From Trypanosoma brucei (Eukaryota): DNA of 64,000 bases. Below, one piece after another: positions 45,001 through 54,000 of the stretch (within the stretch, counting starts at the first letter, position 1; the number at the start of each line of letters is the position of its first letter). The position numbers are program-made. The stretch is taken from assembly GCA_000002445.1 (NCBI GenBank), contig CH464491.1:4832001-4896000 (forward strand). The letters are read 5' to 3'.

Positions 45001-48000
45001 CAGGCGACATACCATTTCAGCCGAATAGTTAGGGTACGCCTGAGGTTTGTCCGCCAACAAGTTCCTGTTTATGCCTCCGGATTGTTGTGTCAACATAGAC
45101 TTTTGTAGCCATGTTGGACGTGCTTGTTGGTCCCACAGTTGCTTGGACTGCTGAAACGGCTGGAAGGAAATCTTTAGTTGTGTAGCCCTCACAATTTGTA
45201 AACTTTAAACAAATTCCGATACATAAACGCATCACCACACACTTGTACATATTCAAACTTTAATTCCCCTCCACGTATCAAATAAGTTTCAAAATTTCCC
45301 CCTGATCCTTCGAATTTAAATTCCATTTCTTCCCACTCTTTATACCAAGTAAGATTTTTCACAATAAGTCTTGCTTTCTCCTCCAATACGATCGGCTGCT
45401 TTGAAAAATGAATGAATGGAGTCTCTTCGATTTCTCCACTATGTTGAATAGTAAATAATCTCCCCTCATAATCTAATAAAATCCAATCCTTCCTTTCGTA
45501 AACACAAATCTCTTCCCAACAGCTTATTAATAACTCACACTCCATATTAGTAAATGTAATATAAATTCTTTGATTCGACCACCACTCCTCGCTTCCTTAG
45601 TATTTCATTAAATGCATGTTCAAAACTCTTTAAAGCCCAAACCCTTTTTTTACTATTAAGCCTCACTAAGATAAGGTTTTACACTAGGAAGTTATTTTAG
45701 TAAAACGGATAACTTTTTATCCTCTTCCTTTCTGTAACCAACATTAAAAAAACAATAACATCTCTTCACATGCTCCTTGTGATCTGAGTTCATAATCAAA
45801 TCCAACTGAGGTGCGTAACATTCCGATGTTGTCATGAATAAAATACTCTACAGCAGTTTCATATTTATCACAGTCTGATATTATAACATCAGATCCATCT
45901 ACAGTTATTACAATATCTTCATTACTCGCATTCTGTTTTTCCAAGAATTCCATAACCCATCACGGCCTCCTAACATGGATGTACAAACCTCCCATTGCAA
46001 TTGTAATAATTTAAACATGGCTTAGCTTGTCACGCAATATTAGCCTACATCATCCTTGAGTTACATGAGTTTGAAACATAATCACAAATACTCTGGGCTT
46101 TTTAGGGTCGTTATTTCTTACATATTATACATTATCATCATCATTCTCAACAGATATTGAGCTTACACACAGTAAACGTAATTTAAACAGTAATAGTAAA
46201 GTCTTTTATATATCAAATTTCACTCCTTATTTACCTTTAAATTTTGAGAAAATACTATGAGTAAAAAAGAGTTTAACAAGAGAGGTCGGTCGAGCCACGA
46301 AGGTACTTAGCCAATGAATCCTTGCTTACACATGTATATGAAATTCCTTGATACCTCTATGATACTGCTGTTTAATGTTGTTTGCTCAATATCGAAAGCC
46401 AACATATGTCTATGCATTTGCGGGTTTTGTTATAAAAGTTAGCTTAAATCACAGCTGCTGCAGTGTACTACACGCATTTCGCTGTTGTCTCGTATTTTTT
46501 ACATAACTTTTCAATGAATTACTACGGTAATTGTAGCATACATTTACAATATGTGGTTCAGACATACTAATAATGTCACTAGTTTACTTTCATAACACTC
46601 TCAACATCATTTTTGATTATAAGATTCACATAACAATAGTTTCATTATTAATAATACTCCTAATTTTCTTGTTACAGTTATCCTTGCAATAGCAGCTATC
46701 CATTTCTGTGTGAAATGAGGGAAACCACTGACCTCTTCCTGTATACTTTTTAAAAGTTACTGTTGTTTTGCTGTATAGTCATCTGTTTTATTCTGTTCTT
46801 TCTTAACTTCTTAATAAGATGTTGCCGCTTTTCTGTGTAAAATGTAACGGCTTCAATTGGCATGTGCACTAGACTCTGTTTATCTATTTAATATCACACA
46901 TATCATTCCGTGTATAGTGATGCCCATAATTATATTTTTATTTGGCCCTGCGCGTATTCTATTTCCTTTATTTCTGCTCTTCTTTTAATATTCCTCGTGC
47001 TCTCCCACTTCCTTACACTCATTTTTTCACTCACTCATTCAAAAACTCTCATTGCACCCTTTCAGTTGTTTTAACTGCTTCTATTCTAACAGTGCATTTT
47101 CGCTTCTGACGCCGGACAGATTATCGTGGTTCCAGATGCTAGTACCCCGTCTCGTCTGGGGTAGCCAAGTGCCCGCATCATACCCGGTACGACAGGATTG
47201 GGGCTGGAAACAGGCTTTCGGCGACAGCATAAGAGGCAAAAAGGAGTATCAGTCCTCTGGGATGAAGCAATATATTAGACTGCTCCTCTGCACGTGCAAC
47301 AGTGCCTCGATTGGGATACGTATGCTTCTTAGCGGATATGTAGAACAGAATCCCGGTCTCGTCATTCGTGGATCCCAGTGGAATGCCGGAAGTCTCTTCC
47401 AGGGTAAGCGGATCGCCTCAGAGAAGAAGCTCCACAAGGATATGGTAGTTTTCTGTCTATTGCACAAGACTCACTTGGCAAGAGAAGAATGCTGCGCATT
47501 AAAAATCAGTATATATGAACACATGGGGATAGAGCATTCTCCACATGGTGGTGTGGTATCAATTTTAGTCAAAGATAGCGTGGGAATCATCCAAGATCCG
47601 AATGAGGAGGATATGCCGGAAAGTGTCTCGGTAACACTGATGTTTTCAGCTTATCTGATGTTAACTATAAAATCAGCTTACTTCCAGCGAAAGACCAATG
47701 TCACTATATCCACACTTGAGATCTTTGAGAGCTCAAATAGAACACTGTTGATGGGATGCGGTACAAACGCCCATCATGAGTTATGGGACACGCTTCACCC
47801 AAATGATGCAGCAGGAGAATGCACTGTAAACTGGTGTTTACAAAACGATATCGAAATTGCAAATGATGGCACACCAACGAGAAGAATTCCTCACACGGCA
47901 ACCATGTCGCCTCCCGACGTTATGATGCATAAAGACTGCGAAGTCACAAGATTGGAGGCAAGCCTCACTCTAGACAGTGACAGCTACTGGATAACATTTG

Positions 48001-51000: not shown

Positions 51001-54000
51001 CGGGAGTTTTCCACATGAGGAAAAATACATCAATTGGTTCATGAAAATGCACTTTTTGCATTAGAGATGTAGTAAAAAGCAGCACATGTGTATAATGACG
51101 TCTATCAATGTCACATATGTGGTAACGTATTCAACCGAAAGGGACTACTGCAACAACACATGCCACAAAACCCTCCAACAGATCAAGTAGCATGGAAAGA
51201 ACGAAAAAAGAGAAAACGAGAAGAAGAACAGTCGTTACCAACTATTCATAAGTGTCAAAGGTGCCCGAAGCACTATGCCACGTATGGCTGTTTAAGTAGG
51301 CATATACGCCTGAAACATCCTGAAAAGAAAACCGAAGTGACACAATAAACGGAAATGCAGCATAGGGGCAGCGAAGATGAACAATGGCAAGCACCACAAG
51401 CATACAAATTCCTCCGGTGCAAACAGGTGTATAAAAGCAAAACGTGGCTCAATACACATAAGTGCAATCCGGAGCTGAGTGAACGGGAACTAAGCACACC
51501 TGTACAGAAAGTACTGTCGGAGAGAGAAGCATGTACGGTATGAGGTGAAGAATACTACCACAACTGGATGTTACGCCATATGACTGCAAAACACCCCGAG
51601 TATGATATCTCACTCAGACCCCAGACAATAAAAAGAAAAGTGACGAAGGAGATATCAGAGTCGCAAGCAAAGGAAAACACTTGTGATGATAACAAAGATA
51701 AGAATGACAATATGCCACTACTTTTATTTTTGTGACAAATGAAAGAGGGTTTTCAAAAGCAATACATGGATGGCACGCCACAGGTGCGTGAGTATCGAGA
51801 GAGCGAATCCAAAAAGTTAAAAAGTGAAAAAGTGAAAAAGTGAACAAACCTCACAGGAAAACTAAACAACTAGAATCCAGTACCAAATATGGAGTCAATC
51901 CATGCTACATAGATAGAGCACTCCCCAACTGAGATTAGTCACACACACAAGACTTGAGCTCCACGACAAGAAAGAGAAAAAGAGGAACCGAGCATGACAT
52001 GCCAGAAGATAAGATGGATATTTGTAATCAGAGAGAGGAGCCGAAACACAAATGGCATAAGGTTCAAGAACACACAAATAACACTCGTAGAGAGGTTTCA
52101 TGTAAAAGGTGTGAGAACACTTGCATGTCATGGTGTTAACAAGTATGGCATACCAGGACACACAACAAAAATGCAATAACTGTCAAGAGGAAGCGTAAAG
52201 AAGGTCCCCTTGAAATCACGCCACTGGCCCCCCTTGTGCACCAATGCCCACGCTGCTCAAAGGTATGTGCACACAAGCAATATCTAACAATGCATCCCCA
52301 AGCAGCACACGGGCAGGCACGTAGCTCTGATAGGGAAAATGAGCTAAAAGAGAAATGTAAAAATAACATCAGCTCACCTGTTACAGTATCCGGCTTTGAG
52401 TAAACTCCAGTCTAAGTATAGAGTTGACGGTCTGAAAGGGGAAGACATATACTTTAGTGTTAAGCTAGCAAACTTCTTAAGGGTACTTTTCTTTCCAACG
52501 CAAATTAGACTCCCACCATAGACACGAATGTATCTATAACCCGACCGCGAGTAAAGGGAGAAATGTCAACATCATGCTAAATATCCACTGACTAAATGAG
52601 ACACACTCGGATGACCGCCAGTGAGATTATATTCAAATGATGGAAAACAATATCTAAAGGAGGATTCCTCAACAAGGCACTGTTAGCCAGGCCTCAAAAG
52701 AGAAAGGGAGTGGCGGATCTTGAGGATGGGAAGCATATCGGCGAAAGAAGTAGCCGTCCGAGAAGTATATATAGATTGATTGAGGGGCGTGCACGTTAAA
52801 TGCAGAATGAAAAAAATTATGAAACTTATTTATTTTAAAAAATTCCTAAAGTATGTAAAAAATTAGTCTCTAGGTGTAAAATAATAGAGTAAGAGGGCGT
52901 GTAAAGTTAGTTTGACTATGAGCATTTTATAATTTTGTTTATTTTTTATATATTTGTTAGGCTTGTAATAAGAGTAGTAATGATAGTAATAGTAATAATT
53001 ATTATGGGAGAGTGTTTTGAGTGTGCATATACGAATATTATAATAATAGCAGTAATAATAATAATAGTAATGATAATAATAATAATAGGAGAGTGTTGTG
53101 AGTGTGTATATACGAATATTATAATAATATGGGCATAATTATCACAGGTAGATGACGGAGGTAATAATGAGGAAGACGTATAGTATAGTGTGGAAGCTGA
53201 GTGAGGTGGTTACGTTGTCCGCTGCAATAGCTAAAGGAGATGATGCTTTCTGTAGGACAAGGGAAAACGACCAGCGGAACTAAAAGGGACCGCGTATATG
53301 AACCAATGGTGGGTCTTTAAGAAATAGAGACAATCAGTGGTGATGCCCCTCCAATTCATTATTTGTATGCTGGCCGGACATGACGAGAATTAGTGAAATG
53401 AGTAATCTGTAAAAAAGATGTTGGTGATTCGAAACTAACTAATTGCATTAACAAAGCAAAAGCGGTAAGGAAAGATCTTTCTGAAGCCAAATCTCCAAGT
53501 ATTAATCGAAACCAAACAAAAGGGCAGAATGATATGAAACAGAAGGCAAACTGTATACATGATAGAAGCAGCGTTATCTGGTCATTCCAGTAGCAGAAGT
53601 TTTAGATAAAGCTCTAGAGCATAGAACTCACCTTCAACCGTAAAGATTGAAATTTTACGTACTGAAATCTTTCAACGATTGAGCTATATAGGGGACTGGA
53701 ATGTCTGAACATAGATGAGAATTTGAAGAATGAGTGAGTAAGATGTGTTTGAATTTTATAAACGGAGGTAAATTGGAGCTTGGATTACAAAGCAAACCGT
53801 TATCTTTCAACAATTCGTTCTAATTAAAAAATACACCTGTATAAAAGGAAGTCGTACAGCATTCTAACACACAATAATGAGGGCATATGAAGCGAAAGCG
53901 ATTACAGAAACTGATGGAATATATGAAGCGCAACGGACTGTGTGATTTTCTTCAATCTCAGCACATGAATGAAAACTAAAAAGGATAACAGAAGTGCATA

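What the first reader, a model, noticed from the sequence alone, without database searches (positions are those of the whole stretch)
46100..53130. A DIRE occupies the divergent strand switch between two opposed VSG cassette arrays
Every cassette below 46 kb is on the minus strand and every cassette above 53 kb is on the plus strand. The 4.8-kb DIRE (47.1-51.9 kb) sits exactly at the divergent junction, directly upstream of the first plus-oriented 70-bp repeats (52966). On its left flank, where the outermost minus cassette would be expected to carry 70-bp repeats, there are none. Instead there is a copy of the conserved CTR-start motif (46912-46950) and an ESAG3-like pseudogene. This suggests the inversion or recombination breakpoint lay in a 70-bp tract that was later replaced or consumed by the retroelement. 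Retroelement-associated inversion may be how the array orientation came to flip here.
Basis: partly seen in the sequence, partly recalled or inferred. Interest (0 to 1): 0.5.

Follow-up and report, generated by a model that had tools for sequence, protein, structure and literature searches.

The report
Dead retrotransposon at VSG array flip
In a Trypanosoma brucei surface-antigen (VSG) gene array, a dead 5.7-kb DIRE retrotransposon fills the exact point where gene orientation flips, which fits the known tendency of such elements to sit at strand switches and hints, without proving, that it took part in the rearrangement.

Summary
All VSG cassette parts are on the minus strand up to 47098 and on the plus strand from about 52858. 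This applies to 70-bp repeats, the conserved block after them, the inter-cassette spacer, ESAG3 pseudogenes and VSGs.

The interval between is one collinear, degenerate ingi-type retrotransposon (DIRE), plus-oriented. It starts at about 47101 with a complete 5' signature. It ends near 52.8 kb, not 51.9 kb, so it is about 5.7 kb long.

- **Left flank:** a minus cassette head (conserved block, then an ESAG3 pseudogene at 45192-46223). It is cut 14 nt after the point where its last 70-bp repeat should end, and no 70-bp repeat remains.
- **Right flank:** a 5'-truncated plus spacer followed by two 70-bp repeats.
- **Not found:** no target-site duplication and no assembly gap in this interval.

The DIRE therefore sits on the breakpoint itself. 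That favours a DIRE-associated rearrangement over a random later insertion. Inversion specifically cannot be tested: no syntenic sequence was reachable and any partner element lies outside the window. The break is beside the 70-bp tract, not inside it.

Retroposon enrichment at T. brucei strand switches and subtelomeres is already published. This is a well-resolved example of a known pattern and is of modest interest.

The parts
41306..41321 (-). Exact VSG 3'-UTR 16-mer (TGATATATTTTAACAC) of the outermost minus-strand VSG
41400..42735 (-). Outermost minus-strand VSG pseudogene: N-terminal ORF 42013-42735 and C-terminal ORF 41413-41763, in different frames
   Evidence: ORFs. The N-terminal ORF is 68% identical to deposited T. 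brucei VSGs. Pfam does not recognise it.
44751..44883 (-). Weak remnant of a post-70-bp block (model positions 33-177), with no 70-bp repeat upstream of it
   Evidence: E=0.006. Inverted match to the plus cassette block at 56432-56479 (pair I9).
45192..46223 (-). Full-length but degenerate ESAG3 pseudogene
   Evidence: tblastn with ESAG3 covers residues 1-368 at 43.5% identity. The family was identified through a better-preserved copy. Four other copies in the window lie between a post-70-bp block and a VSG, or VSG remnant.
46842..47098 (-). Conserved block that normally follows the last 70-bp repeat of a cassette. It is cut at model position 15, and the 70-bp repeat itself is absent.
   Evidence: Profile from 13 other cassettes, candidate excluded: E=8.7e-26, model 15-267 of 269. 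Alignment. blastn match to 28323-28389.
47101..52795 (+). DIRE (degenerate ingi-related non-LTR retrotransposon), collinear. Sub-parts: 5' signature 47101-47184; endonuclease region 47101-48440, of which 47101-48176 is stop-free; RT 48628-49968; RNase H 50177-50820; C2H2 fingers 51103-52310. The 3' end is uncertain by about 60 nt.
   Evidence: Pfam hits. tblastn with the window's ingi ORFs gives 25-39% identity in frames 3,1,3,1,2,1,3. 5' signature is 72.7% identical over 77 nt; local score 49 against shuffles 15.8+-2.3. Fingers. No DNA similarity to ingi outside the signature.
52796..52857 (.). Unassigned A/T-rich stretch of about 60 nt: either the DIRE tail or the start of the plus spacer. 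It contains an A7 run at about 52812-52818.
   Evidence: the profile envelope starts at 52828. No significant similarity to the ingi 3' end.
52858..52965 (+). 5'-truncated inter-cassette spacer of the first plus cassette (model positions 128-263 of 265). The 16-mer and the preceding VSG 3' end are missing.
   Evidence: The spacer profile from 11 other cassettes hits 52858-52997 at E=7.5e-8; the part up to 52965 is listed here. blastn to other spacers.
52966..53127 (+). Two 70-bp repeats, the first plus-oriented ones
53108..53215 (+). Partial post-70-bp block of the plus cassette (model positions 150-267).
   Evidence: (E=8e-8)
54421..55992 (+). First plus-strand VSG, an intact ORF of 523 aa
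   Evidence: Pfam VSG C-terminal domain. 97% identical to a deposited T. brucei VSG.

Best explanation
What is shown:
- The window is a Trypanosoma brucei subtelomeric VSG array.
- At 47101 to about 52795 lies one dead, collinear DIRE, co-oriented with the plus array.
- It occupies the whole gap between two head-to-head cassette 'heads'.
- The left head (minus) is cut 14 nt after the point where its last 70-bp repeat should end.
- The right head (plus) is cut inside the spacer that precedes its 70-bp repeats.

What is inferred:
- The DIRE's own 5' terminus is complete, so the left junction is an original retrotransposition junction.
- The DNA on the other side should then have been the rest of the same minus cassette (14 nt, then minus 70-bp repeats). 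It is plus-oriented instead.
- The orientation flip therefore most likely arose in an event that used the DIRE.
- One route is homologous recombination between two oppositely oriented DIRE copies. This would invert everything between them and leave a hybrid element with mismatched flanks.
- The other route is an aberrant resolution of the insertion itself, in which the 5' end of the cDNA was joined to a distant or inverted DNA end.
- Either route removes the minus cassette's 70-bp tract from this junction. That cassette would lack the repeat that 70-bp-dependent gene conversion uses.
For: - **Sharp boundaries:** post-70-bp block to 47098 (E=8.7e-26, model position 15 onward). DIRE 5' signature from about 47101. 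Plus spacer from 52858 at the latest (E=7.5e-8).
- **No leftovers:** no minus-strand 70-bp or spacer material lies to the right of the DIRE. At most about 64 nt is unassigned. A random independent insertion into a pre-existing junction would have to land in roughly 0.1% of the window (inference).
- **One element:** the DIRE is collinear from end to end.
- **No target-site duplication:** none found, as expected for a hybrid element or an aberrant insertion.
- **Uneven decay:** the first 357 codons have no stop, while simulations never exceeded 277 (0 of 2000). The other 4.6 kb has at least 3 stops per 600 nt in every frame. This is compatible with a hybrid of two copies.
- **No assembly gap:** none in 46-53 kb.
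- **Literature:** strand-switch regions have the highest retroposon density in T. brucei, and 60% of its retroposons are subtelomeric (PMC2323293). DIRE/ingi lie between directional gene clusters (PMC1868937). ingi/RIME recombine and cause rearrangements (PMC2854126).
Against: - This is a single case. About 3 of the roughly 17 cassette junctions in the window carry an ingi-type element, so at junction resolution coincidence is not rare.
- The missing target-site duplication is uninformative for an element this decayed.
- The DIRE 3' end is not defined to better than about 60 nt. The right junction therefore cannot be called an insertion junction.
- No partner DIRE is visible; it would lie outside the window.
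- The stop-free 5' part still lacks two catalytic endonuclease residues. It is not simply a 'young' half.
- ESAG3 pseudogene divergence is the same across and within orientations. The event is old and its details may be overwritten.
Confidence: 0.45

Rival explanations
1. Later insertion into an existing boundary. The two arrays already met head-to-head, through an old rearrangement unrelated to retroelements or because the arrays were built outward from an old strand switch. The DIRE then inserted at that boundary, as retroposons tend to accumulate at strand switches. Its target-site duplication has since decayed.
For: - Retroposon density is highest at strand-switch regions in T. brucei (PMC2323293) and DIREs are typical there (PMC1868937).
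- The DIRE is very old: 25-39% protein identity to ingi and at least 6 frame changes. A 12-nt duplication would no longer be recognisable.
- The complete 5' end fits a simple insertion.
Against: - The insertion would have had to hit the junction to within about 64 nt, because no head-to-head join survives outside the element.
- In a silent array of pseudogenes every site is tolerant. An ingi sits inside a VSG at 9.7-14.2 kb. The 'safe haven' argument for strand switches is therefore weak here.
Confidence: 0.35
2. The inversion breakpoint lay inside a 70-bp repeat tract, and the retroelement later replaced or consumed that tract.
For: - 70-bp repeats are known recombination boundaries (PMC4858185).
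- The left cassette lacks them.
- Elsewhere in the window an ingi 5' fragment abuts a 70-bp repeat at 6815.
- An ingi 3' of the 70-bp repeats exists in one expression site (PMC2567434).
Against: - The minus cassette is cut at position 15 of the block after the repeats, not within a repeat.
- No repeat remnant is present on either side in minus orientation.
- The DIRE has an intact 5' terminus at the junction. This is not what replacement of a tract by an already resident or later element would leave.
Confidence: 0.1
3. Assembly artefact. Two unrelated subtelomeric contigs were joined through a DIRE, or a contig was placed in the wrong orientation.
For: - Subtelomeric arrays are hard to assemble.
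- In one published T. brucei assembly, contigs were manually reordered and inverted using Hi-C (PMC6784898).
- The window contains a 100-N gap at 62772-62871.
Against: - There is no N run in 46-53 kb.
- The DIRE is collinear with ingi from end to end, with no internal duplication or break.
- It has no second copy in the window.
- Old DIRE copies are usually too diverged to collapse (inference).
Confidence: 0.08

Closest known systems
Retroposon-rich strand-switch regions of T. brucei chromosomes (Bringaud et al. 2007, PMC2323293; Obado et al. 2007, PMC1868937)
   Same: A DIRE or ingi-type element lies exactly between two oppositely oriented gene clusters. The enrichment of such elements at strand switches and in subtelomeres is documented.
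   Different: The published cases separate Pol II-transcribed housekeeping clusters, or mark centromeres with AT-rich repeat arrays. Here the switch is inside a silent VSG array, there is no AT-rich satellite, and both flanks are truncated VSG cassette heads.
Rearrangements caused by recombination between ingi/RIME copies (Jackson et al. 2010, PMC2854126), and ectopic recombination between dispersed retroelements in general (own knowledge: Ty, Alu, L1)
   Same: The element lies at the breakpoint, its two sides have mismatched flanks, and there is no target-site duplication.
   Different: The partner copy and the reciprocal junction, which define such an event, were not seen. The DIRE family is old and diverged, so the recombination would have to be ancient.
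Target-site rearrangements that accompany LINE-1 retrotransposition: deletions and inversions at the insertion site (own knowledge: Gilbert et al. 2002; Symer et al. 2002, Cell)
   Same: A full-length element without target-site duplication whose 5' and 3' flanks were not contiguous before.
   Different: This has never been shown for ingi-clade elements as far as I could find, and it is not testable from one sequence.
Expression sites with an ESAG3 pseudogene or an ingi 3' of the 70-bp repeats (BES7, BES15, BES2; Hertz-Fowler et al. 2008, PMC2567434)
   Same: The layout '70-bp repeats, then ESAG3 pseudogene, then VSG' is seen in five cassettes of this window, including the one that abuts the DIRE. 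It also occurs in a T. b. gambiense subtelomere.
   Different: Those are telomeric expression sites with long repeat tracts. Here the cassettes are silent array cassettes with 0-8 repeats, and the junction cassette has none.

Membership tests
DIRE (degenerate ingi/L1Tc-related element) | Conserved ~79-bp signature at the 5' extremity, shared by all trypanosomatid retroposons (PMC2323293) | tested here: met
   47108-47184 aligns to ingi positions 8-84 at 72.7% identity. Local score 49 against shuffles 15.8+-2.3.
DIRE (degenerate ingi/L1Tc-related element) | ingi-like coding layout: AP endonuclease, reverse transcriptase, RNase H, C2H2 zinc fingers, in that order on one strand | tested here: met
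   Pfam Exo_endo_phos_2 (below the curated cut-off: 24.3 against 27.4 bits), RVT_1 and zf-C2H2. Collinear tblastn matches to the window's ingi ORFs, including RNase H. Fingers.
DIRE (degenerate ingi/L1Tc-related element) | Degenerate: many stops and frameshifts, and diverged from active ingi | tested here: met
   At least 6 frame changes and 25-39% protein identity to ingi. No DNA similarity beyond the signature. Catalytic Glu and His of the endonuclease are replaced. Exception: the first 357 codons are stop-free.
DIRE (degenerate ingi/L1Tc-related element) | A-rich 3' tail and flanking target-site duplication | tested here: inconclusive
   Only an A7 run at about 52812-52818, in a region that also aligns with A-rich spacers. 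No duplication of 12 nt with up to 2 mismatches. The 3' end is not alignable to ingi.
Canonical silent VSG array cassette (70-bp repeats, VSG, 3'-UTR 16-mer) | One or more 70-bp repeats upstream of the gene, for the outermost minus cassette | tested here: not met
   There is no core hit between 41085 and 53007 on either strand. The place where the repeat should be (from 47099) is occupied by the DIRE.
Canonical silent VSG array cassette (70-bp repeats, VSG, 3'-UTR 16-mer) | Conserved sequence block downstream of the repeats, a VSG, and the 16-mer | tested here: met
   Block 46842-47098. VSG 41400-42735. Exact 16-mer at 41306-41321.
Inversion by recombination between inverted repeats | A second copy of the repeat in opposite orientation at the other end of the inverted segment, with reciprocal flanks | not testable with these tools
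   No other DIRE is in the window and the arrays run off both ends. No syntenic or whole-genome sequence could be reached.
Divergent strand-switch region acting as a Pol II transcription start region | Start-site chromatin marks and divergent transcripts | not testable with these tools
   Sequence alone cannot show this. Rfam found nothing in 41-56 kb.

The most novel reading that the evidence does not exclude
DIRE and ingi copies are the hinges on which segments of the VSG archive are flipped. This element would then be a hybrid of two DIRE copies: a stop-free 5' 1.07 kb joined to a heavily decayed 3' 4.6 kb. It would be left by an inversion that also stripped one cassette of its 70-bp repeats, shutting it out of repeat-guided gene conversion. 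If orientation switches in VSG arrays genome-wide coincide with retroelements that have mismatched flanks, retroelement recombination would be a main architect of the antigen archive.
Probability: 0.2. Interest if true: 0.5.

Novelty: new member of a known kind. Interest (0 to 1): 0.3.

Why it matters
VSG arrays are the raw material of antigenic variation, and how they are built and reshuffled is only partly understood. A base-level description of one orientation switch gives a concrete, falsifiable prediction: a partner DIRE with the reciprocal flanks. It also gives a simple genome-wide test of whether array flips are retroelement-mediated. In addition, it identifies a cassette that has lost its 70-bp repeats, the element shown to give access to archive VSGs (PMC4858185). 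Taken alone, it is one more example of retroposons at strand switches, so its value is mainly as a worked case.

Tried and rejected
- **Synteny.** Exact-protein look-ups for three window VSGs, one DIRE ORF and the 97%-identical deposited VSG all returned nothing. No comparison with other strains was possible. The one T. b. gambiense locus retrieved (L001) is not syntenic, and its DIRE-like fragment shares no DNA similarity with this DIRE. It could not be used to fix the 3' end.\n- **ESAG3 identification.** A homology search with the decayed ESAG3 translation from 45-46 kb found nothing. The better-preserved copy at 30.4-31.5 kb was needed.\n- **Region 42.7-45.25 kb.** Pfam on the three minus frames gave only DUF1363 and no hidden VSG.\n- **RNA families.** Rfam at E<=1 over 41-56 kb found nothing, so no HDV-like ribozyme model hits the 5' signature.\n- **Target-site duplication.** None found.\n- **DIRE 3' end.** Alignment to the ingi 3' end gave no signal above shuffles.\n- **Two halves of one ingi?** I considered that the ingi 5' fragment (6815-7253, minus) and the 5'-truncated ingi (9.69-14.24 kb, plus) were halves of one inverted element. 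I rejected this: about 270 nt between them is missing, and each has its own junction.\n- **Age of the junction cassette.** I considered that its ESAG3 copy is older than the others. DNA identities do not show that.\n- **Literature.** Searches found no description of orientation switches inside VSG arrays. Berriman 2005 and Marcello & Barry 2007 are not held.

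
Full report
**What the window is.** The 64-kb window is a Trypanosoma brucei subtelomeric VSG array.
- Tandem Repeats Finder and pattern searches find the classical 70-bp repeat: 11 matches to a 43-nt core against 0 expected.
- Pfam finds VSG A-type, B-type and C-terminal domains in many ORFs.
- One VSG is 97% identical to a deposited T. brucei VSG.

**Orientation map.** A sensitive scan for the 70-bp core puts every copy on the minus strand up to 41085 and every copy on the plus strand from 53007, with none between. 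I built two further profiles from the window's own cassettes.
- One models the ~270-nt block that follows the last 70-bp repeat. It was built from 13 cassettes, with the candidate excluded.
- The other models the spacer between a VSG 3'-UTR 16-mer and the next 70-bp repeat, from 11 cassettes.
- Every confident hit of both profiles (E below 1e-3) is on the minus strand below 47.1 kb and on the plus strand above 52.8 kb.

Other evidence agrees.
- The VSG ORFs follow the same rule.
- ORF 42013-42735(-), which Pfam does not recognise, is the N-terminal part of a VSG, 68% identical to deposited VSGs.
- AT skew changes sign at 47 kb, and cumulative GC skew has its minimum there.

**The element in the middle.** Between the two arrays lies one ingi-type non-LTR retrotransposon on the plus strand.
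- Pfam finds endonuclease (below the curated cut-off), reverse transcriptase and C2H2 fingers.
- tblastn with the ORFs of the window's own ingi (9.7-14.2 kb) gives collinear matches: endonuclease 47919-48440, RT 48628-49968, RNase H 50177-50820, and the last zinc finger 52245-52313.
- Those matches have 25-39% identity and run in frames 3,1,3,1,2,1,3.
- There is no DNA-level similarity to ingi except the 5' signature. 47108-47184 aligns to ingi positions 8-84 at 72.7% identity, with score 49 against 15.8+-2.3 for shuffles.

This places the element's first base at about 47101. The features fit the published definition of a DIRE (PMC2323293). The fifth finger (CPRCSKVCAHKQYLTMHPQAAH, 52245-52310) aligns with the last finger of ingi, and the G+C-rich body continues to about 52795. 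The element is therefore about 5.7 kb, not 4.8 kb.

**Left flank.** The post-70-bp profile hits 47098-46842(-) at E=8.7e-26, covering model positions 15-267 of 269.
- The minus cassette head is therefore present but cut 14 nt after the point where its last 70-bp repeat should end.
- The next bases are the 5' end of the DIRE. No 70-bp repeat exists there.
- Downstream on the minus strand is a full-length but decayed ESAG3 pseudogene at 45192-46223. It covers ESAG3 residues 1-368 at 43.5% identity; the family was identified.
- The same layout (post-70-bp block, ESAG3 pseudogene, then VSG or VSG remnant) recurs four more times in the window. It also occurs in a T. b. gambiense subtelomere and is known from some expression sites (PMC2567434).
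- Between the ESAG3 pseudogene and the outermost VSG (41400-42735) lie 2.4 kb of mostly unrecognisable sequence. It contains a DUF1363 match and a weak second post-70-bp remnant.

**Right flank.** The spacer profile hits 52858-52997(+) at E=7.5e-8, covering model positions 128-263 of 265. The 16-mer sits at model positions 57-72 and is absent.
- Two 70-bp repeats follow at 52966-53127.
- A post-70-bp block lacking its first ~150 positions comes next.
- An intact VSG lies at 54421-55992.
- No minus-oriented cassette material lies to the right of the DIRE.
- About 60 nt (52796-52857) cannot be assigned to either the DIRE tail or the spacer.

**What this implies.** The change of orientation happens within or at the ends of the DIRE. 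No head-to-head join survives anywhere else.
- The DIRE 5' terminus is complete, so the left junction is best read as an original retrotransposition junction.
- The DNA beyond the 3' end should then have been the rest of the same minus cassette, and it is not.
- This is the signature of either a recombination between two inverted DIRE copies or an insertion that resolved aberrantly.
- The alternative is an insertion that happened to hit a pre-existing junction to within about 64 nt.
- I favour a DIRE-associated rearrangement (0.45) over a later insertion (0.35).

The evidence is indirect.
- No target-site duplication is detectable. That is uninformative for so old an element.
- The 3' end is not defined.
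- No partner copy is in the window.
- ESAG3 pseudogene copies are 62-75% identical, regardless of side. The event is old.
- There is no assembly gap in 46-53 kb; the only N run is at 62772-62871.
- A mis-join through a DIRE cannot be fully excluded without reads. One published assembly did invert contigs by hand (PMC6784898).

**An unexplained detail.** The first 357 codons of the DIRE are stop-free. In 2000 Markov simulations of the element, the longest open stretch averaged 120 aa and never exceeded 277. The remaining 4.6 kb has at least 3 stops per 600 nt in every frame.
- The open part is not a functional endonuclease. The catalytic Glu (ingi FCLLSET, here FCLLHKT) and His (ingi DSDHHH, here DSDSYW) are replaced.
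- Uneven decay would fit a hybrid of two copies, but it could also be chance or partial gene conversion.

**Comparison with what is known.**
- Strand-switch regions have the highest retroposon density in T. brucei, and 60% of its retroposons are subtelomeric (PMC2323293).
- DIRE and ingi elements lie between directional gene clusters, including at centromeres (PMC1868937).
- ingi and RIME recombine and cause rearrangements (PMC2854126).
- 70-bp repeats give access to archive VSGs (PMC4858185).

The finding is therefore a new, well-resolved example of a known pattern. In the searchable literature I found no description of orientation switches inside VSG arrays. Two key papers were not available.

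**Verdict.** Novelty: new member of a known kind. Interest: 0.3.

Noticed in passing
window 6815-7253 (-): The first ~439 nt of an ingi, with its 5' signature and a 2A-like motif (LLSGDVEENPGP). It is inserted in a VSG C-terminal fragment (7270-7546) and ends abruptly against a 70-bp repeat at 6815. This is a second retroelement/70-bp junction in the window, and it has no change of orientation.
   Followed up: partly
window ~9690-14242 (+): A 5'-truncated ingi with long open frames (752, 222 and 437 aa; RT, RNase H, C2H2) and an A8 tail. It lies in the plus orientation inside a minus-strand VSG (8765-~9690, continuing after 14243). Retroelements therefore also sit inside this array without any orientation flip.
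   Followed up: partly
window 8061-8072 and 8585-8596 (-), within 7600-8750: TTAGGG repeat units (one exact dimer and one with a mismatch; 0.11 expected). They lie in an A/T-rich stretch just downstream of a VSG 3' end (16-mer at 8752-8767). This looks like the relic of a once-telomeric VSG now buried in the array.
   Followed up: partly
window 62772-62871: A run of 100 N (assembly gap) inside a TAA/70-bp repeat tract of a plus cassette. It is the only gap in the window.
   Followed up: no
window 5005-5896, 14521-15526, 30425-31528, 45192-46223 (all -) and 56740-57733 (+); L001 9501-10552: Five ESAG3 pseudogenes. Each lies downstream of a post-70-bp block and upstream of a VSG or VSG remnant, in the cassette's orientation, and they are mutually 62-75% identical. 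The same layout occurs in a T. b. gambiense chromosome 5 subtelomere.
   Followed up: yes
window 47101-48176 (+): The 5' 1.07 kb of the DIRE is stop-free (357 codons; 0 of 2000 simulations reach this), although two catalytic endonuclease residues are lost. The rest of the element is riddled with stops. This uneven decay is unexplained.
   Followed up: partly
window 44866-45010 (-): A Pfam DUF1363 match (E=3.3e-13), a family of short hypothetical T. brucei proteins. It lies just downstream of the ESAG3 pseudogene and is absent from the other four ESAG3-bearing cassettes.
   Followed up: no
window 24750-24800 (-): A cassette with only one, strongly degenerate 70-bp repeat. The core scan missed it, but the flanking spacer and post-70-bp profiles revealed it. 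Near-loss of the repeat therefore also happens without a retroelement.
   Followed up: partly
window 53108-53215 (+): The first plus cassette lacks about the first 150 positions of the post-70-bp block, so its last 70-bp repeat is joined directly to the 'ATGGGCAT' motif. Both cassettes next to the DIRE are therefore atypical.
   Followed up: partly
window 18710-20224 (-): An intact 504-aa ORF in a VSG position, with no Pfam VSG hit even at E<=10. Its only in-window similarity is a weak match (26% over 133 aa) to the C-terminal region of the VSG at 60812-62377.
   Followed up: no
L001 14079-15091 (+): The T. b. gambiense subtelomere holds a DIRE-like RT/RNase H fragment (28-36% identity to ingi). 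It lies between plus-oriented VSG cassettes and a minus-oriented ESAG1, so another degenerate retroelement sits near a change of gene orientation.
   Followed up: no
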